This document shows positions 2,736 to 54,310 of a stretch of DNA of 64,000 bases, in pieces. The stretch covers positions 4,340,001 through 4,404,000 of the forward strand of contig NC_087436.1 in NCBI RefSeq assembly GCF_036321535.1, read 5' to 3'. Numbering within the stretch: position 1 is the first letter of the stretch; the number at the start of each line of letters is the position of its first letter. The position numbers and the translations under genes were made by a program. A model generated the notes under the pieces. The model was given only the letters and a program-made list of their open reading frames with translations, searched no databases and was not told the origin of the DNA. This DNA is from Camelus dromedarius. Taxonomy: Eukaryota.

Positions 2736-2739
2736 GACT

Positions 2740-6149: not shown

Positions 6150-6613
6150 ACACAGTTGCAGGAGCCAGACAGACGTGATAGGTGTGGTGGGCCCACCGCC
6201 ATGGCTTCCTGGGAAGTGTAGCTTAGCTCTGCTAGTCTGTGTATTCCCACATTTCTCATCCCTTCTCATCTCCTCTTCCTAACCTTCCCCCTCGTGTCAT
6301 TTCAGCTTTCTGCTTTCCAAGGGGAAGGCTGTAAAAAATTTTTTTAATGTATTGGATGATTTCCAATTTGCAGTTTCAGGTATGAAGCCCAGTGTGGGCT
6401 TTGTGAGAGAACCGCAAACCTGTGAGAAAGAACTCTGCTGTCAGGATAAGGGACCCTGTTCCTCCATCCAGCGGAAAAGAAATTGAAAATAGGTCTTCCT
6501 TTTCCCTTGTCTAGAAAAACAAGTGTCCCCAAAGCGCGCAGCCTGGGCTGAGGCTCCAGCCTTTGGCAGCGAGTAACCAAAAGCTATGACTGGGGCCCAG
6601 ATTGGGTCCTTAC

Positions 6614-7632
6614 CTCCTGGATGTGCTCCCTGGCCCCCTGAAGCTCTTCTCTGTAGCCCTTCTGCTGCAGCTCGCTAAGGCTTTCATAATACCCCTCTGG
6701 GTCACGGGTCTCTGTGAAGAGCACCTGGGAGAGGATCTTCCAGCTGGAGGTGTCCAGTGCGTGGCCCAGGGAGACCTGGAGCTGGTAACGCAGAATGGGG
6801 ACCTCCTGCTCAGTCATCTCTGGGGCGTCCCCGGACAGCACTGTCCACACGCCCCAGAGCCCCGCGGGGAGTACCGGCAGGCATGGCTCCAGCTGCGAGC
6901 GCACGGAGCTGGGGTGCTGGTGCGCCGCGCAGATGCTGAAGGAAGCGCCCAGCCCAGCTCCTCGCCAGGGACTCCAGCTCCCTGCCATGTGGCAGCTGCT
7001 CCGCCACCAAGAGCCCAGCGATGCCCGGTCCGCCTCGCCCTCCCTCACCATTTCTAGCATCTCAGTCTCCTCGGTGACCGTCACGCAGGCGCTCACTACC
7101 CGCACTGACAACACCGGGGCCTCCTAGGGCGCCATCGCGGCTGGCCCCCGCCCCACCTCTGCCTCCAGATGCACTCCGGGCCGGGCTGGACGTGGCCCGC
7201 ACTGGGCTCTGGAGAGGACTCTCCGCCTCCTTTCCTGCCAAACTCCATGGCAGCAGGCACCCTGGAAGGCTGCACATGCTCCGAGGAGAGCTGCCCTCCG
7301 ACCAGGCCAGGAGCCTCCGGGGGCCCCAGGCTCCTGCCCGGTGTTACCGAGGCAGTGGCCTCGGGCCGGCCCCTGCTCACTGGGCAGCTCGGCCTGCAGG
7401 TCCTGTCGGATGTGAGTGCGCCAGGCTCGGCGCCCCCTTGCACACCCGCCTGATGCTGGATGCTGCTCCTCTGCCTCTGGGCCGGCTGGTTGTGGCAGCT
7501 TATGGCAAACTTAGCCTCAATCTCATTCCGGGAGACGACAGAGACAAACCTGTGCTTCCCCTGCTCCTCCAGCCCATGCGGCCTCATGGCCACCCGGTCA
7601 AACTCGAGCGTCTCCTCGAGGGCCAACGACAT
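6614..7632 (-). pseudogene. JMY: Unprocessed pseudogene copy of JMY exon 1 (junction-mediating and regulatory protein)
   Basis: Kozak GCCACCATG at 7632. MSLALEETLEFDRVAMRPH...NEIEAKFAISCHNQPAQRQRS matches JMY MSFALEETLESDWVAVRPH...NEIEGKFAITCHNRTAQRQRS. SQLEPCLPV...APEMTEQE...WKILSQVLFTETRDPEGYYESLSELQQKGY...IQE matches the end of JMY exon 1. About 4 frameshifts and an in-frame TAG at 7124-7126. Ends at donor GAG|GTAAGG. Confidence 0.93.
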
Positions 7633-7914
7633 GGTGGCTCTGGTGCCAGGCCACAGGGAAGGTGCCACTGGCCCTGCCGGCCAGGGGACTCACCGGCTGG
7701 CTGAGCCGCACCCAGCCCCCCACCACTCACCCTCGCTGGGTGCCTTCAGCCATCCTGGCGTGCTGGCGGCTCTGCCCCCTCGCTCGCCTGCTGCTCCGTG
7801 CTCAGAGCCTCGCGCTCCTTTGTGGCTCGGCTGGCAGGAAAGACAATACGTGCCCCAGGAGCAGGTACAGATACACACTACTATCTATAAAATACAGAAA
7901 CATCAACTCCCAGG

Positions 7915-8260: not shown

Positions 8261-9221
8261 TGTTCCTCTTTTTCAAGATTCACTCATCTATTATGAGCCC
8301 CTGGATTTTCCACGTGAATTTCAGATTGATTGTCAATTCCTGCAAAACACCACCTGGGATTTGGGCAGGCATTCTTTGAATCCTTAGATCTATTCATGGA
8401 CTATTGTCATCTTAGTAGTCCGCTCCATGAATATGGGGTTATTTTCTGTGAATGTAGGTCTTAATTTCTCTCAACAAAATCTCTCAGCTATTGCAGCCTT
8501 CAGTGGCCAAGCCTGGTACTTCCTCACCTCTGTGGGATGCTGATGCAGAACGGACACGACATCCTGGAGAACCTCTACTGCCATGGAGCTGACTTGGAAC
8601 TGAGTCCTGAGAAGGCTTTATTCTTTACGGATTCTTAACTCCTGTAGAATTCATATTTTACTCTCATAAATGCTTATTGTCCTCATAATAAATCTTTTAA
8701 AAATAGGATTAATGTACTTCAATTACTCCATAGATGAGTAATGGATGGGTCACATTCACATAGGATTTTAATCCTTTTAGAATTAGTAGAGCAATACACA
8801 TAACAAAAAATTGAAACATTGCCTAAAAGAGAAGAGATTTGTAAATCCCACCCACAGAGGTGACTGTCATGAATGATTTGGTGCTTATCTCTCAGTCTCT
8901 GTGTCTCTCAGTATGTATCTCTCTGTCTCTGTCTCTCACACACTCACAATCAGATTCATTTACATCTATGTTGATTTCACACATATGTGGTCGTGCAGAT
9001 GGGACCCAGGATGCAGATAGTGGGTCTGCATACTTCCACCTTGAGGCCTCCCTTGACATCGGGTAGAAACCCGACATCCACTTTTCCAACTGCACACCGT
9101 TCATTCATCCACGTGAACCAGAACTGATGGAAACCATTCCCTCTCCATCAACCTAGTGTTGCTTTAATTCCCACTGTTTCAACCAGTGCTGTGATGAACA
9201 CCCTTGAAAAGACATCTTTGA

Positions 9222-9897
9222 ACAGCTGTGCAAGGACTTTACTGGGATGACGTCTAGAGGATCAGCACTGCTGGGGCAGGGATGCACCTGTGGCCCTTTG
9301 ATGTGTCCTGTACCCTTTTCCCCCGGAGAGGAGCATCTGTTTGCTCTTCCCTCCAGGAGACCTGCTGGGGCCTCTGCCTCCTCACATTGTCACCAGGGAT
9401 GGTTGTCAGCAGGCTAAAGACCTGCCAGCATGATGGTGACCAGTGCTGTCCCACAGTGTGTCCGTCTGCCCGTGTCCTCACCCGAGAGGTCGAGCATCTC
9501 TAGCACACACTGGCCACCTGCGCTGCCTCTCGTTGAACCTGCCCGTGTGTGTGCGGTTTCTGTTGAGAACACTGGGTTTCGAGAGGTTTTTGGACCACAG
9601 GGACGTGAAACCTTTCTCCAACCTTGGGTTAAGAGGAACGCATTTTCCAGGTTGTGGTTTGTCTTTCCAGCTGTTTTTCTGGGCTTTGGCTTGTTTTTTG
9701 ATTTGTTTGGTTTTGTTTTTGCCACAGGAAGAGCTAAGCGTCTCCCTTCTGTCCTCTGGCTGTGGTGTCACAGGGGGAACAGCAGCGTCTATCCCGAGAT
9801 CATGCGCAGTGTTACTAAAAGGGCTTCATTTTGTGCATCACATCTTTAATTCCCCTGGATTTCCCTTTCAAATAATAAAAATGCTACTTCAAGTAAA
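9222..9897. repeat. Direct repeat copy A (~680 bp, partly old antisense L1), paired with 12856-13530
   Basis: Near-identical sequence at offset 3632. The paired ORFs 9430..9849 and 13062..13481 translate almost identically. Confidence 0.95.
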
Positions 9898-9934
9898 AAC
9901 AAAAGAAAATCACCAGCCCCAGTTTAAAACATGT

Positions 9935-12770: not shown

Positions 12771-12855
12771 TTAGGACACAGGGAAGGTCATTTCTGAAAA
12801 TGCCTTGATGACATATTATTTTGAATTCATGTGACTGAAGGAAAAACCTCCATGA

Positions 12856-13530
12856 AAGCTGTGCAAGCACTTTGGTGGGATCAGCGCTAAGGACCAGTGC
12901 TGCTGGGGAAGGGGTGCGCCTGTGGCCCTTTGATGCGTCCTGCACCCTGTTCCCCTGGAGAGGAGCGTCCGTTTGCTCTTCCCTCCAGGGGACCTGCTGG
13001 GGCCTCTGCCTCCTCACATTGTCACCAGGGATGGTTGTCAGCAGGCTAAAGACCTGCCAGCATGATGGTGACCAGTGCTGTCCTGTACTGTGTCCGTCTG
13101 CCCGTGTCCTCACCCGAGAGGTCGAGCATCTCTAGCACACACTGGCCACCTGTGCTGCCTCTCGTTGAAACTGCCCGTGTGTGTGCGGTTTCTGTTGAGA
13201 ACACTGGGTTTCGAGAGGTTTTTGGACCACAGGGATGTGAAACCTTTCTCCAACCTTGGGTCATGAGGAACACATTTTCCAGGTTGTGGTTTGTCTTTCC
13301 AGCTGTTTTTCTGGGCTTTTACTTATTTTTTGATCTGCTTGGCTTTGGTTTTGCCACAGGAAGAGCTAAGCATCCCCCCTCTGTCTCCTGGCTGTGGTGT
13401 CACAGGGGGAACAGCAGCGTCTATCCCGAGATCATGCGCAGAGTTACTAAAAGGGCTTCATTTTGCACATCACATCTTTAATTCCCCTGGATTTCCCTTT
13501 CAAATAATAAAAATGCTGTTTTAATTAAAA
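12856..13530. repeat. Direct repeat copy B, paired with 9222-9897
   Basis: See copy A. Confidence 0.95.
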
Positions 13531-19449: not shown

Positions 19450-19660
19450 CCTAACCCTTACCCAACCCCATAACCAAAACCCTAACCACCTAAACCTAAC
19501 AACTTGGACTTTTGACCTCAACTCTGACACCTAAACTCTAATCCCTGACCCTGACCCTTTGTAACCATCACCCTCTACCCTGACTCACCAATCCTGACCA
19601 TATCCTTAAACCCTGACCCCTAAACCCTGCCACGGACTAGGATCACAGACCTAAACCCTA
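19450..19660 (+). repeat. Degenerate telomere-like (CCCTAA/CCCTGA)n tract
   Basis: cctaacccttacccaacc...aaccctaaccacctaaacctaac...ccctgaccctgaccc...taaaccctgacccctaaaccctg. Confidence 0.7.
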
Positions 19661-19699: not shown

Positions 19700-21888
19700 G
19701 TAAACTCAGTGAATGAGTCTTCACGACCAAAGCACAGGCATGAAAGAAAAAAAGAAAGAAAAAACCAAACAGATACATTGGATTTTCTCAGAGTTAAAAA
19801 CTTTATTGCATCAAAAATATTATCCAGTATGTGAAAAGACAGCCTACATATTGTAAAAAAATATTTGTACATTATATATCTAATGAGTCTGTTATCCAGA
19901 ATGTATCAAGAAACTCATCAACAAAAACACAGAAGACACAATTTTTCAGATGCACAAGGGACTTGACCAGACTCTTCTCCAGACAAGGCATACAGTGGTC
20001 AACAGGACATGAAAAGATGTCAAACATCAGTAGTCATGATGGAGATGCAAATTAGTACAATACAATTCCCATTCAAACACACTACAATTGTTGTAATGAA
20101 GAATAATTTAAAGAGAATGAATATTGGCAACAATGTAGAGCAAAAGGAACCTTTAAATACTGCTTGTGGAAATAAATGTAAAGTGGTGCAGCCTACAGGT
20201 ACAATACTTTGACATTCCCTCAAAAAGATAAATGTACAGTACTACATGGTTCAACAACTCCGCATCGAGTGATAGATGGCACAGAATTGGAAACAAGTGT
20301 TCAAGCAAAAAGTTGTACATGAGTATTCATAGCAGCGCTGTTCACAATAGCCAACAGGTAGAAACAATTGAAATGTCCATCAATGGGTAAATAAATGAGC
20401 AAAATGCAGGACATCCGTGAACTGCCATATTATTCTGTAATATGAATGAACAAAGTAAAATAATGTAGATGCTGGAGTCAACAATATGGCAGCTCCTCAA
20501 AAAGTTTAGCACAGAGTTCACATATGAGCTGTCAATTCCATTTAAGGCACGCACTCAAAATATTGGAAAGGAGGGGCTGGAACAGATGCATGTCCTCGCA
20601 TCATTCACAGTAACAAAGGTGGAAGCAACCCAAGTGTCCACTGATGAAGAAATGAATAAATGGAATGCGGTATTTATACACAAGGGAATGCCATTCAGCC
20701 TTGAAAACTAAGGGGATTCTGACACTTGCTACAAGGTGCATGAACTTACTGAAGTAACTGTGCTAAGTGAAATCAGTCAGTCATAGAAAGACATGTTCTA
20801 TGATTCCGCGTACATAAGGCTGCAGATGAGTCAGACAGAAAGAATGTGGTTGTGAGGAACTGAGAGGAGTCAGTGTTGAATGGATACAATTTCAGTTGGG
20901 GAAAATGAAAAAGTTTGGGAGGTGGGCAATGAGAACTTTATTTTATAACACGGTAGGTGTAGTTAATGCCACAGAACTGTATATATAAGAAGGTTGAAGT
21001 GGTAAGTGTCATGTGTTTTTAATCAAAGTAGAAAAAAATAAAGTCCTGTTACTTGTTACAAGGTGATGAACACTGACCACCTCCTCAGGGAAAGACGCCA
21101 TTCAGGAAAGGCCACCCAGGTCACATGCTCCTCTTTTGCTTGAAATCCATCAAAGGTATGACTTGAGGGAAAGTCCCAGTCAGGGTTTCAGAGAAAGAAC
21201 ACTGGATCAGAATGGAAAGAGACATTTCCATAGATTTGGGGCAGCTGATGATAGAAGAAATGGACCTGTGGGGTGGATTATTGTAAGAAATTAGAAGAAT
21301 CATCACTTAGGGGTTATGTGCTGGTTCCCTGGGAGAGTGTCCCTCTTTGGGGTAAAACACACCAGAGTACTTTGCATGAGGTGGCCAACGTGAGTACTGT
21401 GCACCGCTATTGAAAACTGTCTATAGATTTGAAATTACTGGAAAATAAATTCCTTTTCCAAACAGCCATATCAATAAAAGGACAGAAAAGTAGAAAAGAT
21501 ATGAACTTGGTTACAGAGGCCAAGCCCTACCCAGCCTCTGCTCACCCAGTCTGGTGATGCTCATCACCCTTGAAGGAATCCACGTGGTTTTGAAGAGGCC
21601 CTGTGGGAAGATTGTACCAACAGCCACTATGTCTTGGGTGTTGTGGATGACCTGGGTGTGGTAGAAACAGTGGTGTTTCTAATTCCTGGTTGTTTTTTGT
21701 TTGTTTGTTTGTTTGTTTGTTTGTTTTGCATCAAACCACCAAAAAAAGATTGTTAGGACTAATAAATGAACTCAGTCAAGCTGCAGGATACAAAATCAAT
21801 ACACAAATTCACTTGTGTTCGTATACGCTAATAATGAGCCATCAGGGAGAGAAATTAAGAAAACAGTTCCATTTACAATAACATCGAA
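19700..21888 (+). repeat. Old L1M composite, copy 1 of an ancient tandem duplication (partner 23170-25250)
   Basis: Both copies have the same order of L1 fragments and the same junctions. Anchor ggccacccaggtca is at 21110 and 24486. Confidence 0.8.
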
Positions 21889-23169: not shown

Positions 23170-25250
23170 GCAATGATTTCTTACTTCTGACGGCAAAGCA
23201 CAGGCAGCAAAAGGGAAAAAATGAATTGAAAATTGAAAATCCTTGTGCATCAAAAGATGCAATCCAGAAAGTGAAAAGACAGCCCACACATCGGAAGAAA
23301 GTATTTCCACATGACATATCTGATGAGTCTTTATCCAGTGTGTATCAAGAACTTTTACGCATCCTGGACAGAAAGAAACAACCCAATTTTAAATACGACC
23401 AAAGGACTTAAACAGACCTTTCTCCACCCAAGACATGCAAATGGCCCATAAGCAGGTGAAAAGATACGATGGAAATGCAAATTAAAGCCACGAGGCAGAC
23501 AGTCTTTCTCACACTCTCAAATGGTTGTCGGCAAGAAAATCAAAGGCAACAAATGTTGGCAACAATGCAGAGAACTTGGAACCTTTAAACATTACTTGTG
23601 GAAAGGCAAAAGGGTGCAAACTATGTTAACCATATGAAGAAAGACAATTACCGCATCACTTGGTGACTCCACTCCTAGATATAACCCCCCAGGAATTGAA
23701 AGCAGGCATGCGTAATATTGAGAGCAGCTCTGTTCGCAACAGCCAAAAGGCAGAAACAAGGCAGATGTCCCTCAATGGGTAACTGGAACCAAGAAAGTGA
23801 GGTTGGCTCATAAGCCACCATATTAGTCTGTCGTGAAAGGAGTAAAGGGAAAAATGCAGCCTCTGTGGGAAACAGGGCAGCAGCTCCTCAAAACCTTTAA
23901 CAGCATTTGCAGGTGAGCCATCAAATCCACATCTGGGTGTACACCCAGGAGACCGAAGGCGGGGACTGGCACGTATACGGGCACATCCCTATTCACAGCG
24001 GCACTAGTCACAGCGGCAAAATGTGGGAGCGACCCAGTGCCCATCTACGGACGGGCGGACAGGCCGAATGCGTATACACACAAAGGACCGGAATTCCACC
24101 TTAAAAGTTACAGAAGTTCTGACACGTGCTGCAACATATATGAACCTTGAAGCCATGATGATAAGTGAAATAACCCTGTCATAAAAGGACAAAAATGACG
24201 TGATTCCACTTAGATGATGTATCCAGAGAAGTCAAATTCAAAGGCAGAAAGTGCCACGTGGTTTGCAGGGGCTGAGGGGGAGTTAGTGTTTAATGGTTAC
24301 GGAGTTTCACCAGCGAAAATGGGAAAGTTCTGAACACGGATGACGAGGATAGTTGTACAATGGTGTGAAGGTGGCTACTGCCATAGAACCGTGTGTTTAA
24401 GATGGTTTAAGTGGTACATGTTATTGACATTTAATGACAAAAACAAAAATGAGTAAGGTACTGCTACACGTTACAATCCAGCAACGGCCACCCAGGTCAA
24501 ACTCAGCTGTGCTTTCAATCCATCAAGCTTGTGAAAATGAGGGCAAGTGTCAGTAAGAATTCCAGAAAGAAAACTGGATCAGAATAAAAAAAGGCATTTC
24601 CCTAGAGCTGGGGCAGCTGGTGAAAGCTGAGGTGGGCCTGTGCATTGGATTCTAATGTGGAAACCATAATGATTTCCACATTTGGAGGTTATGTGTTGGT
24701 TCCCTGGGAGGGAGTCCCCGTTTTGGGTAAAAGACACTGGAGTGTTTTGTGGGAAGTGCAGGTGCAGTAAAGCAAAGACAGCTGGGGAGTCTGAGTGTAG
24801 AGACAAGAGGTGTTCTGTTCCACTATGGCGAGTCTTCTGTATGTTTGAAATGACTGGAAAGTAAGTAACTTTCCAAAACACTGTGTCAATACCAGAAAGG
24901 CAGAGAAAACACCAAACTTCCTCACAGGCCAAGTCTTAACCAGATCTAGCTCACTGAAAGTTGCAAAGCTAATCACACTTGTAGGAGTCAGACTAATTTA
25001 GAAGAATCGTGGGAAGGCAATATTAGGAGCCACTATGGCCTCCGTGCTGCAGATGACCTGGATGGGATAAAAGAGTGGGGTTTCTGAGTTCCAATTTTTT
25101 ACATTATTCCACAAAAAAGTGATTAGAACTAATGAATTAATTCAGTAAAGTGACACAATTAATACACAAAAATCAATTGCATGTGTAGACACTAATAATG
25201 AACCAAGAGAAAGAGAAAGAAAAAAATCCAATTTACATTGCATCAAGAAA
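23170..25250 (+). repeat. Old L1M composite, copy 2 of the ancient tandem duplication
   Basis: See copy 1. Confidence 0.8.
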
Positions 25251-25459
25251 AACCCAACAAAATAACTAGAAATAACTTTAATCAAGGACTTGAAAAATTT
25301 GCACACTGAAAACTTCAGAACACTGGTGAAGAAACTGAAAATGAGACAGATAAATGGAAAGATATCTATCCCATGCTTATGGATGGAAGAATTAATACTG
25401 TAAAAATGTCCATTCTACCCAAAGCCATGTACATGTGAATACATCCCTACCAAAATGCC

Positions 25460-25990
25460 AATAAGTCCATCGACAGACGACTGGATAAAGAAGTTGTGGT
25501 ATATTTATACAGTGGAATACTACTCAGTCATAAAAAAGAATAAAATAATGCCACTTGCAGCAACATGGATAGACCTGGAGATCATCATTCTAAGTGAAGT
25601 GAACCAGAAAGAGAAAGAATAATGCCATGGTATCAGTCATATGTGGAATCTAAAAAAAGACCCAACTTATTTACAAAACAGAAACAGACTCATAGACACA
25701 GAAAACAAACTTATGATTACCAAGATGGGAAAGGGGTGGGAAGGGATAAATTGGGAGTTTGAGATTTGCAGATACTAATTTATATAAAATAGATAAACAG
25801 CCAAGTTTATACTGTATAGCACAGGGAACCATATTCGATATCTTATAGTAACTTATGGTGAAGAAGAATATGAGAATGAATATATGTGTGTTCCCCTATG
25901 ACTGAAGCATTGTGCTGTACACCAGAAATTGACACAACATTGTAAACTGACTGTACTTCAATAAAAACGTATTTTAAAAAACAACAAAAA
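25460..25990 (+). mobile_element. Cetartiodactyl-type L1 3' end with A tail
   Basis: gggataaattgggagtttgagatttgcagatact...tgtaaactgactgtacttcaataaaa. Confidence 0.9.
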
Positions 25991-26335
25991 GAACCCTTTT
26001 GTTTGGCTTCAAGGTAGAAAACTTAGACCCACCCACTCTGTTCTTCTTAGCAGAACAGGTCAATTTCATTATAATGTGTACTTTCACAACATTTCTGATT
26101 TTAGGAGCATTTCACCATCTCTAAGTGCCAGAATTATGAACAGCCAATTTCATCATGAAAACACTCCTCCTAACAGCCTGCTTTAATGAATTTGAATATC
26201 CTACCCACAGTTTGGATACAATCAATTTATTCATCTCTTGGGAAAAAAAAATTTTTTTTATCACTAACATTAACTCTATGTGTATGACAGGTTTCACTGA
26301 CCACCACCACATCAGGCACCACACCAAGAACATAA
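25991..26335 (+). pseudogene. MT-ND1: NUMT ND1 3' part (unit 1)
   Basis: ggcttcaaggtagaa...ctgttcttcttagcagaa (GFNVEY...LFFLAE), gccaatttcatcatgaaaacactcctcctaac, ends ...acataa. Confidence 0.85.
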
Positions 26336-26695
26336 TATGCCAGATAGAGAGTTACTATGACAGAGTAAATAATAAAGGTTTAAACACTCTTATTCATTGA
26401 GTCAGAAAAATTGGACCTGCCCTTAAGAATTTTAAATTCTTCATGCTACCATATTATACCATATATTAAATATAAGGTTCATACTCCCAAAATATTTTTG
26501 TGTAATCTTTTTGTACCAATAAACACTCTTGTTGTTACTATCATTCTCCTGACCATTATTTCAGAAATCCTAATTATACTAACAAGCTCATTAATGTTAT
26601 CTTCATTTTAATTGAAAAAAAAACCCATGACCTATGGAAGCACCCCAAAAATATTCCTAACACAATCTACCATATCAATAATACTTCTAATATCA
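26335..26695 (+). pseudogene. NUMT tRNA-Ile, tRNA-Gln (L strand), internally deleted tRNA-Met, and ND2 5' part (unit 1)
   Basis: gagttactatgacagagtaaataataaaggtttaaacactcttatt (Ile), cccttaagaatt (Gln), ND2 ATA start at 26519, aaatattcctaacacaatctacc (KYFLTQST). Confidence 0.8.
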
Positions 26696-27329
26696 ATAAG
26701 ACATCTTGAAGGACTCATGACTAACATCCTATGCTCATACATACATATACAAATTCAGGGAGTGCTACATCTCAATTATGACCATCAGAGGCCTTAACAT
26801 AGTCAAGCCACTTGTAGCTCAGCTTAAATTGAGTCTTATTTACCAACATAATTAACCATGATGTGTGATTGACTCCAAGCCCTCAGGACATAGAACCATT
26901 AAAATTACATACCCTTGCATATCAGGTACACAGCTTGCTTAATCAAAACCTCCTACCTCCCAGTATTTCTCATATTTTATAAGCCATTATTGCCCTACCA
27001 GCCCCACAAAAGGCAAAGCATGTAACTATATAATATTCAACTAACTCATCTAACAAACAGACTGCCCTTACTTTACCAGGGCAAAGTTAGGATAACTACA
27101 AACTACTTGACTAATGATACCAGTCAATTACTTAGATATGTGAGTTTCATATAGGCAGACATTCCTCCAGTTCAGCCATTTACATTAAACAAAATTTAAA
27201 AAATATTAAGTGCATGTTAATAATCTCCAAAAAAATTCTATAATAATTGCAACCTAATCCAAACTACAAGCTCAATAGCAATGTATCACTTAAATGTATG
27301 TCTTATACATACAAAATCCTACTCACATT
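26695..27329 (+). pseudogene. NUMT control region (D-loop) 3' half, copy 1
   Basis: aataagacatcttgaaggactcatgactaa resembles the conserved aataagacatctcgatggactaatgactaa. Also ggccttaacatagtcaagccacttgtagct and CSB1/2/3-like remnants. Confidence 0.8.
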
Positions 27330-27934
27330 GTTGACCTAGCTTAATAATTTAAGCAAAGGGCTGAAAATGCCAAGATGTGTCCTAATTTCATAAATACATA
27401 GGTGTGAACCCAGCCTTTCTATTAATGTTTAATAAAATTACACATGCACGTATCTGCAGCTCATTGAGACTGCCCTCTGTATCGCAAAGACTAATAGAAA
27501 CAAACTAAAACATCGCACTAAAAAGTAGCTCATCAAAGCTGAACTATTCCTTAAAGGAAATGGCAGGGATAAAAATTAAGCCATGAATGAACATTTGACT
27601 ATGTTATATTAAAACATTATAATTGGTAAAATTTAAGCTAGCCACTCTGAACATAAGAATAACCCTTATTTACAGAAATCCAGCAGAAAGTGTATTAAAT
27701 AATAGCTTAAAATAAGATCTGAGCAAAAATGAAAAAAGCTGATTAAAAAATCATAAGCTGTAAAAGAGACTTTAATAATTTCTGATTACACAACAGTGAA
27801 GATCCACCTGGGATTACATAGCCCACAATGCTTAGGCCTAAATTCAAATAATTATAACGGCTAAACTAACTATTCACCAGAATATGCGCAGAATCAGCCT
27901 GAAGACAAAGCACTTGGTGGTGATTCATACTCCT
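27330..27934 (+). pseudogene. MT-RNR1: NUMT tRNA-Phe (27330-27398) and 5' part of 12S rRNA
   Basis: gttgacctagcttaa...ctgaaaatgccaagatg; ccagcctttctatt...aaaattacacatgca; ctgggattacatagcccacaatgcttag; ends gcacttggtggtgattcatactcctc. Confidence 0.85.
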
Positions 27935-27959
27935 CTTTTTTTTTAATTAAAAAAAAATT

Positions 27960-28340
27960 TTTTTGACCAGACTATGTGAAGTGGGCAAGACCATGACAAA
28001 CACTATGTGATGGATCACTGCTATGCGGAACCTGTCAAATAGTACACGTGAATGTATTTGCAGCTCAGAACACACTCACCGACACAGAAAACACACACAC
28101 TATGGTTAGTAAAGGGGAGGTGGGGAGGAGTAATTTACGAGTTTGGGATTAGCAGATATAAACTTCTGTGTATAAATTAGATAAATAGGAAGAATTGTAT
28201 CTCACATAAATAATATTCAGTAACTTGTAATAAACTAATACAAGAAAGAATCTGAAAAGGGATATATATATACAAATTTAGATAGATATATGTATATAAA
28301 ATTATTCTGATGTACATTAAAAATTAACACAACACACTAA
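27960..28340 (+). mobile_element. L1 3' fragment replacing 12S 3' part, tRNA-Val and 16S 5' tip in the NUMT
   Basis: gagtttgggattagcagatataaac...aagaatctgaaaag...acactaaatcaagtatgcctcaat. Confidence 0.8.
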
Positions 28341-28344
28341 ATCA

Positions 28345-29918
28345 AGTATGCCTCAATTTGGTAGAAACTTTGATTCAAAATCTAAAGTATAGAAGATTGA
28401 AATTCAAATCTGGTGCTCTAGAGAATGCACCATACGGGAATGATGAAAGAAACATTAAAAGGACCAAAACCCAAAGCTGATTTCTTTTACATTTTGCATA
28501 ATTATTTATCTAGATGACTAATGACGAGAAACTAAGAAAATTAACCTGAAACCAGATGACCTTCTTATGAACAGATTACATAACAAACTCATCTATCTGG
28601 CAGAAGAGTGAGAAGATTAATGCATAAACATAACCCTCCTCACAAGCCACGTGATACCTGGTTGTCCAGAAATGAGTTTTAGTTCAACTGTAAATATTAC
28701 TTACCAACATAACTTTTAACATAATTTTAAATGCCATTCTAAAAAGGTCAGCTTTTTTGATAAGGAAACACCTTCCCTAAAGACATCAGAATCACCATTG
28801 TTGGCTTAAAAGTAGCCACCATTTAAGAAAGTGTTCAAGTCAAGAACACATTCACCTCAATACCAGTAGTCAATAATTCAACTTCTAATTTAATGCTGAA
28901 CTAATCTATGAATTAACAGAAGCAATACTGTTCCTACAGATAACAATGAATATTTTTCCTTGCATAAGCTTATATCAAAATAGATAACCCACTGATATTA
29001 ACAGGAAAATAATCCTGAACCAATACCTAATTGTTATTTAAAGCAATTGTTAACCCAACACAGGCGAGAATTTAAGGAAAGATCTAAAAGAGTAAAAGAA
29101 TTAAGCAATCACAAATTCTGCCTGTTTATACATAAAAAAGAAATAACCTCCAGCACTTCTAGGGTTAATGGCACTACTACCCAGGGACATCTGTTGAATG
29201 GTCATGGCATCCTAGCCGGGGAAGGGTGGCATTGTCCATGCTTCTCTACATAAGGACTTGTGTGAATGGCCACCCTAGGGTTTTACTGCCTCTTTTAATC
29301 AGTGAAACTGACCTTCCCTTGAAGAGACAGGGATAAGAGAAGACAAGAATACTCTGAGGCTTAGTTATACCATTCAAAAACTAAACAGTAACTGAATTTT
29401 AAGGGAGACTATAGCTTTTAATGGATTAATAATTTTGGTTGGAGTGATCACAGACAACAAATGAAACACCAAGTGTTTAAAATTTAGACCAACTATTCAG
29501 AATGTTTTATCACTTACTGAACTGAAATATTGATCAGTGAAGCAGGTTACTCTAGGAAAACAACACAATTATATTCTGGAGTTCTTATCAGTACTAGGGT
29601 TTATTACCTTGATGTTGGATCAGTACATTCCAGTCTGGTAACTCCAATGAATGATGTTCAATGATTAAAGTTCTGTGTTGTCTAAGTTCAGACCGGAGTA
29701 ACTCAGGGCAGTTTATATCTATTAAGTATTTTTCCTAGCATGAAAGGACAAGAGAAATCATGTCAACTTTACAAAATGACTTCAAATGGATGATCTCATT
29801 GCAATTCAATTAATTTATACATAATCTGTATGCTCACAGGCTTTGTTGGGTGGCAGAGCCTGGGAATTGAGTAAAACATAAAGCATTACCCACAGAAGTT
29901 CATGCCCTCTTCCCTATG
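28345..29918 (+). pseudogene. MT-RNR2: NUMT 16S rRNA copy 1 and tRNA-Leu(UUR) (29845-29918)
   Basis: gttggcttaaaagtagccacc, taacccaacacaggc, aatcagtgaaactgaccttccc, ccttgatgttggatcag, aagttcagaccggagtaa, gaaaggacaagagaaat; tRNA-Leu gttgggtggcagagcc. Confidence 0.9.
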
Positions 29919-29920
29919 AT

Positions 29921-31245
29921 AGTGGTTCCAATCAGAATTCTTTCACTAACAATTCCAATTTTACCTGACCTACCAGTCCTCACATTAGTTGAAGATAAAG
30001 CCCTGGGCTATGTACGGATCCAGAAAAGGTGAAACACTCTCAGACCCTACGGGCAATTACAACCCATTGCTGATGCAGATTATTGATTAAAGAACCACTG
30101 TGCTCAGCAGTCTAATCAATTGATACATTTATTATTGCATCAATTCTAGCCTCCACCCTGGCTTTCACATATAAATTCTGCTTCTCATTTCTTATACACT
30201 AATTAATAGCAACCTAGGTGTACTATGTACAATAGCTATATCAAGACTAAGATGTTTATCCCATCCTCTGATCTGGAGAAGCTACAGATCCATAGATGAA
30301 CTAATCAGAGCTCTGTGGGCAAGAGCACAGACCACGTACCATGAAGTAATACTAGGAACTCTTCCATGTCCTACTGATAAATGGATCACATACGCTTTCG
30401 ACGGGAATTATCCCACAAGAACACCTATGACTGTTTTTCTGAACTTGATCCGTAACTATAATTTGAGTTATCTCTATGTTAGCAGAAACGAACCGAGTCC
30501 CACTGATTTTATAGAAGGAGAATCAAAACTTATATTGGGCTTCAAGGTAGAAATGTAGCAGGTCCCACCACCCTGTTCTTCCTAGCAGAAAATGTCAACA
30601 TCATTGTAATGAATATTTTCACAAGGATCCCATATTTAAGAACATTTAACAACCTCTACATGGCAGAATTCTAAACAGCCAATGTCATCATTAATACATT
30701 CCTGCAAGTAGTTTCATTGTTATGAATTAGAACATCCTACCCACCATTTTGAAATTATCTACTTATACATCTCTTGTGAGATATTTCTTACCACTACTGT
30801 TAGCTGTATGTCTATGACAAGTTTAACTACCCATACCCATCATCACATCAGGCACCCCATCACAAACATAAGAAATATATCTGACAGGAGAGTTACTCTG
30901 ACAGAATGTATAACACATGTTTAAACACTCTCATTCCTCAAATCATAAAAATTGAAACTACCCTTAAGAATTTTAAATTCTCCATGCAACCACATTACAC
31001 CATATATTTTACAGTAAGGCCCACTAAATAAGTGTTAAAGCCCACCCCACCCCCCAAATGTTGTATAATCTCTGTTCAATAAACACTTGTTTTCACTGTC
31101 AGTCTTCTGACCATTATCTCAAAACTCATAATTGTAGTAACAAGCACACACTGCTTATTGCTATCTTTATTGCAGCAAAGAGTTTAACCCAGGAGCTATA
31201 GAGACACCCAACAAATGTTTCTAAAACAACCTACTGCACTGTCTT
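29921..31245 (+). pseudogene. MT-ND1: NUMT full-length decayed ND1 (29921-30870), tRNA-Ile/Gln/Met (30871-31078), ND2 5' part (31079-31245)
   Basis: ccctacgggcaattacaacccattgctgatgca (PYGLLQPIADA-like), ttagcagaaacgaaccgagtccc (LAETNRAP-like), gaaggagaatca (EGES), agaaatatatctgac (Ile), agtaaggcccactaaataag (Met). Stops and frameshifts throughout. Confidence 0.88.
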
Positions 31246-31715
31246 ATAGACACCGCGATGCACTTACCTCTAATAATACTACTTTCACACACAACTTGCT
31301 TAATGCATTTGTTTTTTTTTAATTTTGGGGGGATACTATGACTCAGTATGGCCTGCAGAGGACTTAGCACAGTCAAACCCCTTGTACCTCAACTTAAACT
31401 GAGTATTATTTACCAATATATTCAACCATAGTGCTACTGACTCAGTGTTCACAGGACATAGGACCATTGCAGTTCCATACACATGCATATCAGAAACATA
31501 ACCTGCTTAATCAACAGCTCCTTCCTCCCACCAAGTCTCATATTTCATAAGCTATCATTGACTTCCATCCAAACCCCTCAAACAAGGAAAAGTATTTAAG
31601 TATGTAAGATGCGACGAACTCATCTGACAAACAGACGCCCAGCCTTCACCAACACAAAGTTAGGATAACTAACAACCTGATCAATTTCTTGGCTGATAAG
31701 AATTAGCACATACAC
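31245..31715 (+). pseudogene. NUMT control region 3' half, copy 2
   Basis: tagacaccgcgatgcact..., atgcatttgttttttttaattttgggggg, gactcagtatggcc, ttcacaggacata. Colinear with 26695-27135. Confidence 0.8.
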
Positions 31716-31934
31716 ACTATCACCTATAAAGTAGACAGTCAATGCGGAAGTATTGTAGAGAACAGGGAACTATATATAATAACTCATAATAAATTTTAAT
31801 GGAAAAGAATCTGAAAAGCTGATACAGACAGATAAGTTGATGTATACATATATAACAGATGTATAGCAGATACTTCGCTGTAAATCAGAAATTAACCCAA
31901 CCCACTAAATCAACTATACTTCAATTAAAAAAGT

Positions 31935-34135
31935 ACTTTCATTCAACATCTGAACTATAGAAAACTGAAATTTAAGTCTGGTGCATACCAGAAGGGAATG
32001 ATGAAAATAAAACCAATAAAATTACTGAAAAGCAAAGCTTATACTTTTTATCTCATGCATAGTAATTGAACCAGATGAGTAATATAGAGAAATTATGAAT
32101 TTTTGCCCTGTGTAGATACTGGCAGGCATATGCAGAATAGATAAACAACATTATACTGTATAGTACAGGGAAATATATATAAGATCTTGTGGTAGCTCAC
32201 AGCAAAAAAAAAAAAAAAGTGACAATATATGTATGTTCATGTATAACTGAAAAATTGTGCTCTACACTAGAATTTGACACAACATTGTAAAATGTCTATA
32301 ACTCAATAAAAATAATTTTAAATAATCCCTGAATCCAGATGAGCATCTTACGAACAGTTTATGAAAACACATGCAACTATATCGCAAAATATTTAGAAGA
32401 CTCATGAGTAAACGTGACCTTCCTCACAGGCCAGCTGACACATGGTTGCCCAGAAATGGATTGGAGTTCAACTTAAACATTACTTAAAAACATAGCTTTT
32501 CCGAGTCTGCACCTCTTGGGGAATGAGGGAAATGTTAGCTGCTATCTTGACTGTGGTGATGGTATCATGGGTGTAGACATCTATCAAAATTCAGCAAGTT
32601 GTACATCTGGAATATGTGTAGTTCGCTGTACAAGAATCATACCATAATAAGGTGTTAAAAAAAATAGAGAGCAGGAAAAAAGCATAACTTTTAATGTAAT
32701 TTTAAGTGTTATTTTTTAAAGTTACAGCTTTTTGGATACATTATACACTCTCCCTAGAGCATAAGCCTCAAATTCACCATTGTTGGCTTAATAGCAGCCA
32801 TCAATTAAGAAAGTGTTCAAGGTCAGGAACACAGACATCAATGCCAATAGCCAATAAACCATCTCCTATTTTAATACTCTGCTTATCTATGTATTTATAG
32901 AAATAATACTGTTCATATGCATCACAAGCAATATTTCTCCTTGCGTGAGCCTACATCACAACAGATAACCTACTGATAGTTAACAGGAAAATAAACCTAA
33001 ACTAGTACCTAATTATTTATGAAAGCAATTGTTAACCCCAGACAAGTGAGCAGTTAATGAAAGATTTTAATATGTAAAAGGAAATCAGCAATCACAAACC
33101 TTCACGTTAAAAAAAAAAAACAAAAAACCAGAAAGAATGAAAAAGAGAAATGCTCTCCAGCATTTCTAGTATTAAAGGCACTGTGTGCCCAGGGACATCA
33201 GCTCAGTGGTGATGGTACCCTGACTGTGGGGATGTTCCATAGTCATTTGGCTCTAAATAAGGACTTGTATGATGGCCACACGAGGGTCTTTCTGTCTCTT
33301 TTAATCAGTGAAATTGACTTTCATGTGATGAGGTGGGGATCATAGAAGATGTGAAGAACCTACAGGGCTTAAATGAATCCATAGAGAGAGTAAACAATAA
33401 CTGAAATTTAAGAGATAATATAAATTTTAACTGATTAACATATTTTTTGTTGGTGTGACAATGGAGAATAAAACAACCACTGAGGGATTGAAATTTAGAC
33501 CAAGTGTTCAGAATAGTTTATTGCATATTGATATGAAATACTGATCAGTGGAGCAGGTTACTGTAAGGACATTAGGTCCTATCAACTCTAGGGTTTAAGA
33601 CATTGGATCAGTACATCCAGTACATTGCAGGCATGTAACTGTGATGAGTGGTTTGTTCAAGGCTTAAACTTCTGTGTCATCTAAATTCATTATGGAGTAA
33701 TTCTGGTCAGTTTCTATCCATTACACATTTCTCCCAATATATAAATACAAGAGAAGTAAGGTCTACATTACAAAATGACTTCCAACCAATGATATCATTG
33801 CAATCCAATTAATTTCTACATACTCTACTGCACGGCAGTTTTTTGGTTGGTTGGTTGTTTAGTGTGGCAGGAACTGATAATTGAGTAAAATTTAAAGCTT
33901 TATCCACAGAATTTCAAGTCCTCTTCTTACAAAAATGATAACCAGCAGAATTCTTTCACAGATGATTCCAATTTTACTGAACATAGCATTCCTCAGATTA
34001 ATTGATTGCAACGTCCAAGACTATATACAAATTCAAAAATGGTGAAACAGTGTCAGTCCCTGTGGGTGATTACAAGCCATTGCTGATGCAGTCAAATCAT
34101 TTATTAATGGACCACTAAGGTCATTAATCTTATCA
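31935..34135 (+). pseudogene. MT-RNR2: NUMT 16S rRNA copy 2 (with insertions ~32110-32325 and 32501-32680), tRNA-Leu (~33857-33932), ND1 5' part
   Basis: Colinear with 28345-30110, e.g. caccattgttggcttaa, aatcagtgaaattgact, gccattgctgatgcagtcaaa. Confidence 0.88.
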
Positions 34136-36895
34136 TTCTACCCAACATTATAAGAATTGATACCAAGACTTCTCAAACTCTTCCAAAGATAGAAGAGAAG
34201 CAAACACTCCCAAACCCATTCTATGAAGCCAGCATCACCCTGATACTGAAATAAGACAAAGACCCTACAAAAAAAGAAAATTATAGGCCATATCTTTGAT
34301 GAATATTGCTCCAAACTTTCTCAGCAAAAAATTAGCAAACTGAAGCCAACAAAATGAAAAGCAGATCTTGCATGATGATCAAGTTGTATTCATCACAAGG
34401 ATGGTACAAAATATGCAAGTCAATCAAAGTGATAAACCACATCAACAAAAGAAAGGGCAAAAATTACATGATCATCTCAATAGACGCAAAAGAAGCATTT
34501 GATAAAATTCAACATCTTTTCATAACAAAAACTTACCAAAGTTATCTCAACATAATAAAAACTATTTAGGACAAACACAAGGCCAATGTAAAACTCAGTG
34601 GTGAAAAGTTGAAAGCCTTCCTGCTAAAATCTAGAACAAGACTAGGATGTCCGCTATCATCACTTCTATTCAACACAGGGTTAGCAATCCTAGGCATACA
34701 ATCACATAAGGAAAAGAAATAAAAGGGATCCTAATGGGAAGCAAAGAAGTAAAACTGTCACTAGATTCAGATGACAAGATACTACATATAGAAAACCTTA
34801 AGTCCACACAAAAACTGCTAGAGCTGTTGCACAGATTCAGTGAAGTAGCAGGATACAATATTAACACAGAAATCTGTTGCATTTTTTACACTAAAAGTGA
34901 AATTTCAAAAAAGGACCCTTAGAAAACAATTCCTTTTAAAATTGCATCAACAAAATAAAATACTTAGAACTAACCCTGGCCAAGGAAGTGAAAGACTTAT
35001 AAGCTGAGAACCATAAAACATTAATAAAGGAAATTAAGGAAGATTTAAAGAAATGAAAAGACATCTGATGCTCTTGGAAGAATTAATATTGTTAAAATGG
35101 CCATACTGCCCATAGCAATCTACAGATTTAATGCAATTCCTATCAAATTGCACAGGACATTTTTCACAGAAGTAGAATAAATACTAAATAAATACTAAAA
35201 TTTATATGAAATCACAGAAGACCCTGAATTTCCAAATACTGAAGAAAAAGGACAAAACTGTAGGCATAATCCTCTTAGACTTCAGACATTACTACAAAGA
35301 TACAGAAATAAAAATAGTGTGGTACTGGTACAAAAACTGACATTTGGATCAATGGAACAGAACAGAGAGCCCAGAGATAAACCCAGACACCTACTATCCA
35401 ATAATCTTCAACAAAGGAGTCAAAAATATACCATGGAGTAAGAACAGTCTCTTTAGCAAGTGGTGCTGGGAAAGGTGGACAGCTGAACGGAAATCAATGA
35501 AGTTAGAACACTCCCTTATACCATACACAAAAATAAACTCAAAGCAGTTTAAAGGCTTAAACATGTACAGCACACCATAAATCTCTTAGGAGAGAACATA
35601 GGCAATACATTCTCTGACATAAATTGTAGCAATTTTCTCCTAGGTTAGTCTACTGAGGCAATGGAAATAAAAGCAAAATAAACAAATGACACTTTATTAA
35701 ACATATAAGGTTTTTTTGCACAAAACCATAAATGAAATGAAAAGACAACCTAAGAAATACGTTTTGACTGACAAGGACATAATTAGTAAATAATGCGTCT
35801 GATAAGGGCTTAATTTCCAAACTATAAAAACAGCCCACAGAACTCAGTAACAAATGATGCAACTGACAAGGGTTTAATTTCCAAGAATTTACAAAGAGCT
35901 CATACAACTAGCAACAGAAGGAAAAAAGCCATCCAGTCAAAAAATAAGCAGAGGACTTAAAGAGACATTTCTCCAAAGAAAACATACAGGTGGCCAATAG
36001 GCTCATAAAAAGATGCTCAATATCTCTAATTATTAGAGGAAAAAAAAAAAGAAAACTACAGTGAGGTCTGATCTGTTGTTGGTCAGGATGGTTATCATTA
36101 AAATGTCCACAAATGATAAGTGCTGGAGAGGGTATGGAGAAAAGGGCAAACTCCTACACTACTGGTGGGAACGTTATTTTGGTGCAGCCACTATAAAAAA
36201 CAGTATGAAGATTCCTTAAAAAAAATTAAAGTGAGACTTAAAATATGATTCAGCCATCCCACTCCTGAGCATGTATCTGGAGGAAACTCTAATTCAAAAA
36301 GACACCTGCACCCCAATATTCACAGCAGCACTATTTACAAAAGCCAAGACATGAAAGTAACCTAAATGTCCATGGTCAGATTATGAGATGAAGTTTTTTT
36401 AGATAGACAGGCAGACAGACAGAAAGATAACAGAATACAACTCAAATGTAAAACAGAATAAAATAATGCCATTTGCAGCAACATGGATGGACTTAGAGAT
36501 TATCACACCAAGTGAAGTAAGACAGAGGAAAAAAATATTGTATGATATCACTTATATGAGGGATCTAAAAAACGTGGCACAAATTAATTTACTTACAAAG
36601 CAGAAACAGGGTCAGACAGACATAGAAAACAAATAAATGGTTCCCGGAGTGGGGGGACTAGGAAGGGAGGGATCAATTGGGAGTTCAAGATTTCCAGATA
36701 CTAACTACTATATCTACAAGAGATAAACAACAAGGTCCTACTGCACAGCACAGGGAACTATGTACAGTATCATGTAATAACCTGTAATGGTAATGAATAT
36801 GGTGAATAATATATGTGTATATCTGAATCAGTATGCTGTACACCAGAAACTAACAAAACGTGGTGAACCAACTATATAATTCAATATGAAAAAGA
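34136..36895 (+). mobile_element. 5'-truncated L1 (~2.8 kb; ORF2 RT and C-terminal region, 3' UTR, A-rich end), disrupted
   Basis: ORF pieces [30 protein letters not shown] (FADD motif decayed) and [13 protein letters not shown]. Cetartiodactyl-type 3' UTR. Confidence 0.95.
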
Positions 36896-38788: not shown

Positions 38789-39314
38789 TGCGATAAAGAA
38801 CTGTTTTCCAAAATGTATCAAGAACCCTTAAAACTCTGCGATAAGGAAACAAACAGACTGATTAATAAAATGGGCCACAGCCCTGAAAACACATCTTACT
38901 AAAGAAGGAATTCAGCTGCAAAAGATGCTCAACGTCATATGTCATTAAGAAATCACGTGAAATGTCACTTGACACTATTTAGAATGTCCAAAGTCTAAGC
39001 CTGACATGCACCAAATGCTGATGACGATGTGGTGGTGAAAGGGCTTTCATTCGTTGCTGATGGGAATGCAAAATGGCACACACATGACAGTTGGAGATAG
39101 GTTGGCAGTTTCTTCCAAAAATGAAACGTTCCTGTGTAATACAATCCAGCAATGACGCTTCTTGGTACTCACACAAGGGAGACACCTTGGGGAGATGTGA
39201 AGATAGGGACCCGCGTCTCTGTCCCACAGGGAAGATGTTTCTCTTTCATCCCGGGCTGCAACCCCACACTCATTGAGTTACATTCACCCCACCCCCTGCA
39301 TTCTTGCCAACACC

Positions 39315-40175
39315 TTCACCCTGAACCTCCAAGGACTGAGGCCAAGTCTCTACCCAGGTCCCCACGTCCCCTCTAAACCTCCCAGAACTGCGGGGAGGCT
39401 GGGTCTCTACACAAATCCTTATATCCACTCTGAAGCCCTCAGAACCAAGGTCAGGCCAGGTCCCCACAGAAACCCCAGGACCGAGGCCAGAATGGGTCTT
39501 TACCCAGGGGTCCCTGGACCCCGTTTAGCTCCCCAGAGTGAGGCAAGGCTATTTCTCTACCCAGGTCTCGATATCCACCTTGAAGCACCCAGTATGGATG
39601 ACAGGTCTCTACCCAGCGTGACGGGTCCCCCCTGAAGCGCTCAGTACTGAGGTCAGGCTGAGTCTCTTCCCAGGTCCCTATGTCACCTGAAAGCTTCCAC
39701 TGAGGCTAGATGGTGTCTCTACACAGATCCCCACATCCCCCTTGAAGCTTCAAGGACTGAGGCCATGTTCTGTCCCTACCCAGGACCCCACACGCCAAAT
39801 GAAGCTCCCAGGACTGAGACAGGGAGGAGCCAATATCCAGGTCACCATGGACCCCTCAAGCTCCTAAAACTGAAGCCAGGCTGGGTCTCTACCCAGGTCC
39901 CAGTGTTCTCCTAGAAGCTCCAAGGACTGAGGTCAAATCAGGTCACTATCCACATCCTCAAGTGGCCCCTTAAACTCCCAGGACTGAGAAAAGGCAGGGT
40001 CTCCAACCAAGTCAGCAGGGACACCCTGATGCTCCCAAAACAAAGGCCAGACTGGGTATCTACCCAGTCTACACGGGTATCCTGAAACTCCCAGGACTGG
40101 GGGCAGGCCTTCATCCAAGTCTCCACGTGCCTCCCAAGTTCACAGACTGGCCTGGGTCTTCACTCAGGTCCCTGT
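39315..40175 (+). repeat. Degenerate 57-bp tandem repeat (~15 units); consensus translates as EAPRTEARLGLYPGPHVPP
   Basis: ggactgagg-type anchors recur near 39755, 39812, 39869, 39925, 39982, 40039 and 40095. Consensus GAAGCTCCCAGGACTGAGGCCAGGCTGGGTCTCTACCCAGGTCCCCACGTCCCCCCT. Confidence 0.88.
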
Positions 40176-48893: not shown

Positions 48894-49020
48894 TTTTTAA
48901 AATTTTGGTTGGATTTTCTTTTCTTTTCTTTCTTTCGTTTTAATGGAGGTCCTGGGGATTGAACCCAGGACCTTGTGCATGCGAAGCATGTGCTTTACCA
49001 CTGAGCTAGAGCCTCCCCCC
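48894..49020 (-). mobile_element. tRNA-derived SINE (Vic-1-type) with TSD
   Basis: ggggattgaacccaggaccttgtgcatgcgaagcatgtgctttaccactgagcta; TSD cactaaggatcttttc / caccaaggatattttc. Confidence 0.9.
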
Positions 49021-54132: not shown

Positions 54133-54310
54133 GGGGGAGGGTAGAGCTCAGTGGTAGAGTGTGTGCTTAGCATGCACGAGGTCCTGGGTTCAATCCCCAG
54201 TGCCTCCATTTAACAAAAAAATAATAATAATAAACAAATAAACCTAATTACTCCCTCCCCCAAAAAACCCAAACAAAAAAGTAAATAAATAATAATGAAA
54301 AATTTAAAAA
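54133..54310 (+). mobile_element. Full-length tRNA-derived SINE (Vic-1-type, camelid)
   Basis: ggggagggtagagctcagtggtagagtgtgtgcttagcatgcacgaggtcctgggttcaatccccagtgcctcc (A and B boxes), aacctaattactccctcccc, A-rich tail. Confidence 0.9.

What the first reader, a model, noticed from the sequence alone, without database searches (positions are those of the whole stretch)
25991..34135. Ancient NUMT amplified head-to-tail, with a repeated ND2-to-D-loop junction
The non-mitochondrial junction ND2(5' part)->control region occurs twice (~26695 and ~31245). ND1 appears three times, and 16S, D-loop and the IQM cluster twice each. The anchor ggcttcaaggtagaaa is at 26005 and 30538 (period 4533). The copies share derived lesions, so most decay happened in one nuclear ancestor before amplification. 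Examples are an internal ND2 deletion after the SSHW region, tRNA-Leu aattgagtaaaa, 16S atcagtg(a/g)agcaggttact and ND1 ggtgaaaca. Tandem NUMT arrays are known (the domestic cat Numt), but one this degraded is unusual.
Basis: partly seen in the sequence, partly recalled or inferred. Interest (0 to 1): 0.7.

Follow-up and report, generated by a model that had tools for sequence, protein, structure and literature searches.

The report
Fossil tandem mitochondrial array in camels
A piece of mitochondrial DNA that entered the nuclear genome of a camel ancestor tens of millions of years ago first decayed, was then copied head-to-tail, and seems to survive as dead arrays on three chromosomes; it has no function but shows what becomes of such arrays over deep time.

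Summary
Real. Window 26000-34139 holds three partial head-to-tail units of one mitochondrial fragment (mid control region to ND2 nt ~215), 61-72% identical to mammalian mtDNAs and ~76% to each other. Both junctions map to the same mtDNA places within ~20 nt. "Most decay before amplification" is overstated: about 40% (37%, CI 30-45; 43%, CI 29-54). The locus is already listed as six BLAST hits in a published wild-camel NUMT table (PMC10764098, Cfer_numt21-26), which scores that species as having no tandem duplication. Coordinates in the same table show two further arrays on other chromosomes with the same junction spacing and an ~0.8 kb insert at the same place. This points to a dispersed family of fossil arrays, inferred from coordinates only. 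It works like the cat Numt macrosatellite but is far older and decayed between units. No function. Eight paper searches found no description of the array; the alpaca NUMT paper was not held. This scan had not noted it before.

The parts
26000..26694 (+). Unit 0 (remnant): ND1 from about nt 600, tRNA-Ile/Gln/Met (about 23 nt of the Met region lost), ND2 nt 1 to ~218 with a 40-nt internal deletion
26692..26697 (+). Junction 1: ND2 nt ~216-221 joined to the central control region
   Evidence: split alignment to three reference mtDNAs
26695..27329 (+). Unit 1: control region, central block to 3' end; keeps the two C-rich blocks seen in the horse-like and pig-like references
27330..27936 (+). Unit 1: tRNA-Phe and 5' part of 12S rRNA (single copy in the window)
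   Evidence: E 4e-72
27972..28357 (+). Unit 1: 3' end of an L1 element, joined to 16S at about nt 60; shared with unit 2
   Evidence: L1 label from likeness to the flanking elements and from recall
28365..31240 (+). Unit 1: 16S rRNA, tRNA-Leu, whole but broken ND1 (~29918-30868), tRNA-Ile/Gln/Met, ND2 nt 1 to ~200-213 with a 34-nt internal deletion
31236..31248 (+). Junction 2: ND2 nt ~197-213 joined to the same control-region block
31243..31702 (+). Unit 2: control region, ended by a ~1 kb unit-specific deletion that removed tRNA-Phe, 12S and the front of the L1 piece
31703..31931 (+). Unit 2: remnant of the shared L1 3' end, same join to 16S; sister of the unit 1 copy (91/91), 26% different
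31935..34139 (+). Unit 2: 16S rRNA, tRNA-Leu and ND1 nt 1 to ~210, cut off by an L1
32112..32323 (+). L1 3' end inserted into unit 2 only (after amplification)
32497..32682 (+). Second insertion private to unit 2, with a ~14-nt target-site-duplication-like repeat on both sides; retroelement 3' end by recall
25000..25990 (+). L1 3' portion abutting the left end of the array
   Evidence: label by recall
34140..36890 (+). 5'-truncated L1 abutting the right end of the array
   Evidence: label by recall

Best explanation
A dead nuclear pseudogene array built in five steps. (1) A mitochondrial fragment from an early ungulate-grade ancestor entered the nucleus (shown: homology; donor lineage unresolved). 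(2) One copy decayed by about 0.08-0.13 substitutions per site, lost ~35-40 nt of ND2 and took an L1 insertion at the start of 16S (shown). (3) A unit of about 5.5 kb, from mid control region to ND2 nt ~215, was amplified head-to-tail in the nucleus to at least three copies within a short time (nuclear amplification shown; short time inferred from equal divergences). I favour the ND2/control-region join as the amplification junction, propagated by unequal crossing-over or a rolling circle of excised nuclear DNA (inferred). (4) Pieces of the array reached at least two other chromosomes (inferred from published coordinates). (5) Homogenisation stopped. Each unit gained another 0.14-0.20 substitutions per site plus its own insertions and deletions, and L1s cut both ends (shown). 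Rough dates, inferred only: insertion about as old as NUMTs that camels share with horses and carnivores; amplification some 40-60 million years ago.
For: Units form one clade at 100/100 in three trees, and splitting them is rejected (p-AU 2e-71 and 5e-5). Shared derived bases are 80 of 1002 and 30 of 341, above all 2000 shuffles. Without CpG sites they are 62 of 937 (mean 16.4, max 29) and 26 of 323 (mean 10.0, max 20). They occur in all 10 bins along the units. Shared deletions include 4 nt and 2 nt in 16S, a 29-column core in ND2 and 1 nt in ND2. The L1 ends in units 1 and 2 join 16S at the same place, are sisters among 9 L1 ends of the window (91/91) and differ by 0.26, close to the 0.23-0.24 of the rest. 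The three blocks show equal divergence (147/653, 99/409, 407/1706; chi-square p 0.75). All six Cfer_numt21-26 rows land on the right window features with one offset. On CM020778.1 and CM020785.1 the tRNA-Gln-to-tRNA-Phe distance is 924 and 941 nt, against 900 here (plus ~23 nt lost in unit 0) and 12,881 for intact mtDNA. Both carry 824 and 804 extra nt at the 12S/16S border.
Against: How the junction arose is not shown: both outer ends are cut by L1s inside ND1, so no unit shows sequence beyond the join. The sister arrays rest on BLAST coordinates in a table, and their DNA was not seen. One of their three measurable junction gaps is 1074 nt rather than ~920. The L1 sister grouping is not starred, and by pairwise difference the unit 2 copy is as close to an unrelated window L1 (0.24) as to the unit 1 copy (0.26). 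Placement among horse, pig, whales and ruminants is open (p-AU 0.29-0.47), and no camelid mtDNA was available. None of the three loci is among the seven cross-order ancestral NUMTs of PMC10764098, which weighs against the older date or means orthologues were lost or missed.
Confidence: 0.7

Rival explanations
1. The junction formed in the mitochondrion. A deleted, multimeric mtDNA (control region to ND2) integrated as a concatemer, the array was homogenised by unequal exchange long enough to spread the L1 and other lesions to all surviving units, and then froze.
For: The unit begins upstream of the conserved control-region blocks, as a replicating deleted molecule would need (recalled). ND1 runs seamlessly through the middle of the array. 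Young concatemeric NUMTs exist, such as the 76 kb chimpanzee array (passages of PMC13629686).
Against: It needs two processes where one suffices. The unit stops before the light-strand origin, which deleted animal mtDNAs usually keep (recalled). No stretch without shared lesions was seen in 10 of 10 bins.
Confidence: 0.22
2. A concatemer integrated once and the units simply decayed on their own, with no later nuclear amplification or homogenisation.
For: Same junction twice; equal divergence between units.
Against: It predicts no shared nuclear lesions. Seen: 80 and 30 shared derived bases, shared frameshifting deletions and a shared L1. The model without a shared branch fits far worse (2 x log-likelihood difference 127 and 54).
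Confidence: 0.02
3. Independent insertions of mtDNA side by side.
For: None found.
Against: One clade at 100/100; separation rejected; same junction within ~20 nt on a 16.5 kb genome.
Confidence: 0.01
4. Assembly artefact.
For: The read-level check could not be run, so contiguity across the junctions was not seen directly.
Against: The units differ by 23-24%. 20 of 24 runs hold 97-98% of the words. An independent published table gives the same order and spacing.
Confidence: 0.01

Closest known systems
Domestic cat Numt (Lopez et al. 1994; seen only as cited in passages of bioRxiv 10.1101/2022.04.04.487049 and PMC13629686)
   Same: A sub-genomic mtDNA fragment inserted once and then tandemly amplified in the nucleus. 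That its unit also runs from the control region through the rRNAs is recalled.
   Different: Cat: 7.9 kb unit, 38-76 copies, about 1.8-2 million years old, one site near a centromere. Here: ~5.5 kb unit, three partial copies per site, 23-24% divergence between units, an L1 inside the unit, probably three chromosomes.
Cfer_numt21-26 of Camelus ferus, Table S3 of PMC10764098 (Uvizl et al.)
   Same: The same locus: all six rows map onto the window's features with one offset.
   Different: Listed there as six separate hits. Table S2 gives this species no tandem duplication event. The junction, shared L1 and family are not mentioned in the passages I read.
Mega-NUMT arrays of chimpanzee (76 kb) and human (PMC13629686 passages; PMC7897518 search listing only)
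   Same: Tandem mitochondrial copies in the nucleus; rolling circle or repeated expansion proposed.
   Different: Very recent, over 99% identical to mtDNA, whole genomes rather than a fixed sub-genomic unit, polymorphic.
Ancestral NUMT blocks 'candidates 5 and 6' of PMC10764098
   Same: Similar decay in camel: their 16S hits are 75.1% and 73.0% identical to mtDNA, against 72.4% here.
   Different: Single colinear insertions with orthologues in other orders. No cross-order orthologue was called for this locus.

Membership tests
NUMT | Homology and colinearity with mtDNA | tested here: met
NUMT | Embedded in nuclear DNA and decayed without regard to function | tested here: met
   L1 flanks and inserts; stops and frameshifts under code 2; 21-26% change at invariant columns
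Tandem NUMT array (cat Numt type) | Head-to-tail units of one mtDNA fragment with a recurring non-mitochondrial junction | tested here: met
Tandem NUMT array (cat Numt type) | Amplification after nuclear insertion | tested here: met
   shared L1 and lesions
Tandem NUMT array (cat Numt type) | High copy number (tens of units) with near-identical units, i.e. a living macrosatellite | tested here: not met
   three partial units in 64 kb, 23-24% apart; whether it once had many units is unknown
Cat/Panthera Numt itself | Felid origin 1.8-3 million years ago, 7.9 kb unit | tested here: not met
   camel locus, different unit and age
Integrated concatemer of deleted mtDNA | Junction older than any nuclear decay | tested here: inconclusive
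   outer ends cut inside ND1; junction too decayed to read microhomology
Dispersed camelid family of these arrays | Same junction, L1 and lesions at the other loci at sequence level | not testable with these tools
   no genome held; only coordinates compared
NUMT ancestral to Cetartiodactyla or Laurasiatheria | Orthologue in pig, whale, cattle or horse | tested here: inconclusive
   not among the 7 cross-order candidates; no such spacing seen by eye in 254 of 600 orca rows; cattle and horse rows not read

The most novel reading that the evidence does not exclude
These are the fossils of a mitochondrial macrosatellite: a cat-Numt-like array that arose from an already decayed, L1-bearing NUMT in the camel lineage (or just before the even-toed ungulate radiation), was spread to at least three chromosomes, and froze some 40-60 million years ago. 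It would be a dated record of the whole life cycle of a mega-NUMT array, one that published tandem-duplication filters miss.
Probability: 0.55. Interest if true: 0.55.

Novelty: new variant of a known kind. Interest (0 to 1): 0.42.

Why it matters
The tandem NUMT arrays in the passages I read are young (cat ~2 million years, chimpanzee under 0.4 million), so their long-term fate is unrecorded there. This locus keeps an ordered record (insertion, decay, L1, amplification, dispersal, freezing) with eight or more units that can be put on a tree. It also shows that NUMT catalogues miss old tandem duplications and so over-count insertions: the wild camel is scored with none. Presence or absence of the single unit, the junction and the array in pig, whale, cattle and horse would be a clean phylogenetic marker. 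There is no sign of function, so the interest is evolutionary and methodological.

Tried and rejected
Whole-genome search: no genome is held. The read-level check of the stretch returned no result, so copy number and joints were not seen in reads. Naming the reference mtDNAs by cluster look-up was not possible. One was checked against PDB ND1 (near-identical to chain 5gpn_e, pig by recall); the other species labels are recalled. ARAGORN and Rfam at gathering score find nothing in the array; at E up to 5 there is only one weak tRNA hit, 30940-31009. Viral-contig scans gave 7 loci that were not used and 0 loci. Placing the donor mtDNA: grouping with rodents or macaque is rejected (p-AU 4e-5, 6e-4); the six other placements tried are not. 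I first took L015/L022/L026 for camel mtDNA and later recognised them, by recall, as dolphins, so no camelid mtDNA is in the trees. The pig and orca tandem cases in Table S2 (rows seen: Sscr_numt180-185, Oorc_numt510-511) have other content. A second camel family seen in the same table (control region to COX1, on many chromosomes) runs past the ND2 junction and shows no 0.8 kb insert, so it was set aside. A telomere-like look at 19450-19660 is not above chance (3 matches, 1.6 expected). The four runs with 0.00-0.01 of the words are small and say nothing.
Full report
Observation. Window 26000-34139 is mitochondrial in origin. I fetched 20 mammalian mtDNA loci that lie as contaminants in public contigs. 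BLAST matches of over 100 nt run at 61-75% identity. Profile searches over the whole 64 kb give 12 hits in this stretch with E from 4e-5 to 5e-179, and 4 hits elsewhere with E 0.26-0.35. Species labels for these references (horse L025, pig L021/L024, cattle L014/L009, sheep L012, goat L016, dolphins L015/L022/L026, rat, mouse, macaque, rabbit) are recalled. Only the pig ND1 was checked, against PDB, and the trees recover the expected groups. No camelid mtDNA was obtained. 20 of 24 listed sequencing runs hold 0.97-0.98 of the stretch's words; 12 of the 20 are flagged as a possible source.

Anatomy. Read as contiguous mtDNA, there are three partial units. Unit 0 (26000-26694) keeps the 3' third of ND1, tRNA-Ile/Gln/Met and ND2 to nt ~218. 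Unit 1 (26695-31240) runs from the central control region through tRNA-Phe, the 5' part of 12S, an L1 3' end (27972-28357), 16S, tRNA-Leu, ND1 and the three tRNAs to ND2. Unit 2 (31243-34139) runs from the control region through a remnant of the same L1 (31703-31931) and 16S to ND1 nt ~210. It has lost ~1 kb and gained two private insertions. L1 elements abut both ends. Split alignment to three references puts junction 1 at ND2 nt ~216-221 and control-region offset -2 to +3, and junction 2 at ND2 nt ~197-213 and offset -15 to +5. ND1 is therefore in three pieces but never more than twice at any base.

One decayed nuclear ancestor. The units are one clade at 100/100 in each segment and in the concatenation, and trees that split them are rejected. 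To avoid alignment bias I added each unit to the mtDNA alignment separately. At columns invariant in all references, units 1 and 2 share a derived base at 80 of 1002 sites (shuffle mean 26.5, max 42 of 2000), and units 0 and 1 at 30 of 341 (mean 11.9, max 21). The excess holds without CpG sites and appears in all 10 bins. Shared deletions include 4 nt and 2 nt in 16S and the ND2 deletion (40 and 34 nt, same 3' end). The strongest sign of nuclear amplification is the L1. Both copies join 16S at the same place, are sisters among 9 L1 ends in the window (91/91, not starred) and differ by 0.26. Against this, the unit 2 copy is 0.24 from another window L1.

How much decay came first. The estimate is 0.10 shared against 0.16 and 0.19 private, and 0.13 against 0.15 and 0.20. 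That gives shared fractions of 0.37 (0.30-0.45) and 0.43 (0.29-0.54). ML trees give up to about half. More decay followed amplification than preceded it, or at most as much. Divergence between units is the same in three blocks (22.5%, 24.2%, 23.9%; p 0.75), which fits one short burst and no later homogenisation.

Already listed, not recognised. In PMC10764098 I read passages and parts of the supplement, which is held cut, including all 318 of 318 Camelus ferus rows of Table S3. Rows Cfer_numt21-26 on CM020769.1 map onto tRNA-Ile/Gln, tRNA-Phe, 16S, the second tRNA cluster and the second 16S of the window with one constant offset fitted on one row. The window is thus this locus in Camelus or a very close relative. 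Table S2 lists no tandem duplication for this species, and the text says such cases were scarce.

A probable family. Two other blocks in the same table repeat the architecture: Cfer_numt143-150 on CM020778.1 and Cfer_numt192-201 on CM020785.1. Normalised to the same mtDNA positions, the gap from tRNA-Gln to the next tRNA-Phe is 924 and 941 nt, against 900 here, where unit 0 lacks ~23 nt. Intact mtDNA would give 12,881. A third gap is 1074. Both blocks carry 824 and 804 extra nt at the 12S/16S border, where the L1 sits here, and periods are 5.6 and 6.6 kb. This suggests an ancestral L1 insert of ~0.8 kb, later cut in unit 1 together with the 3' half of 12S. The family is an inference from coordinates; I saw no DNA from those loci. 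An earlier, unchecked note of this scan places a multi-chromosome duplication family 4.2 Mb from this window, which fits a duplication-prone chromosome end.

Age. The donor groups with horse, pig, whales and ruminants against rodents, rabbit and macaque (96/98), but its place among them, or just below them, is open. In camel the 16S hits of this family are 69.6-73.0% identical to mtDNA for the hits over 700 nt. NUMTs that the paper calls shared with horse and carnivores or bats give 73.0% and 75.1%. If local rates are alike, the insertion is about as old as those, and amplification falls at ~60% of that depth, roughly 40-60 million years ago. That brackets the 55.9 million years the paper uses for the camel split. 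Against the older date: none of the three loci is among the paper's seven cross-order NUMTs, and I saw no such spacing in 254 of 600 orca rows read by eye. Cattle and horse rows were not read, and of pig only 14. Any orthology tables in the unseen part of the supplement could bear on this.

Mechanism. Best reading (0.7): insertion, decay with an L1, nuclear head-to-tail amplification with the ND2/control-region join as its junction, dispersal, freezing. Main rival (0.22): the junction came from a deleted multimeric mtDNA, and the array was homogenised for a time. Both outer ends are cut inside ND1, so this window cannot decide between them. Independent insertions, a concatemer without later amplification, and misassembly are rejected. 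Reading frames are broken, and nothing points to function.

Comparison and novelty. It works like the cat Numt (7.9 kb, 38-76 copies, ~1.8-2 million years; known to me through passages of 10.1101/2022.04.04.487049 and PMC13629686) but is not a member of it and fails the high-copy, near-identical test of a living macrosatellite. Eight searches (listings and abstract starts only, apart from the papers named) and passages of the pig atlas PMC11403998 gave no description of this array or of a tandem NUMT this decayed. The alpaca NUMT paper cited there is not held and could hold one. This scan's index had nothing on it. Verdict: a real new variant of a known kind, interest 0.42.

Noticed in passing
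window 6587-7689 (-): Two frames hit Pfam WHAMM-JMY_N (E 1.3e-6 and 0.003): probably a broken WHAMM-like copy.
   Followed up: no
window 9208-9898 and 12842-13530: 690-bp direct duplicate at 92% identity, much younger than the NUMT array.
   Followed up: no
window 19796-21580 and 23236-24989: 1.9 kb direct repeat at 62.5% identity, spacing ~3.4 kb; either two old L1-like pieces or another ancient tandem duplication next to the array.
   Followed up: partly
window 39311-40105: Degenerate ~57-bp minisatellite, at least 9 copies at 60-80% identity.
   Followed up: no
window 48944-49016 (-) and 54137-54208 (+): tRNA-Ala-like elements; probably the camelid tRNA-Ala-derived SINE (recalled).
   Followed up: no
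window 1700-2700: CpG-island-like stretch (GC 0.69 at 2001-3000) with a GGC run; likely the promoter or first exon of an unidentified gene.
   Followed up: partly
PMC10764098 Table S3, e.g. Cfer_numt9-13, 62-68, 80-86, 97-101, 102-109, 114-120: A second, separate old NUMT (control region to COX1, ~72%) recurs with nearly the same hit borders at ten or more camel loci: a segmentally duplicated NUMT family. Orca has an analogous family (16S 2281 to COX2 7445).
   Followed up: partly
L015:8833-9357: The dolphin-like mtDNA contig runs into unrelated, non-mitochondrial-looking sequence: a chimeric contig.
   Followed up: no
L023-L027: Five prokaryote genome records carry mammalian mtDNA contigs of 1.2-16.6 kb, i.e. 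host contamination.
   Followed up: no
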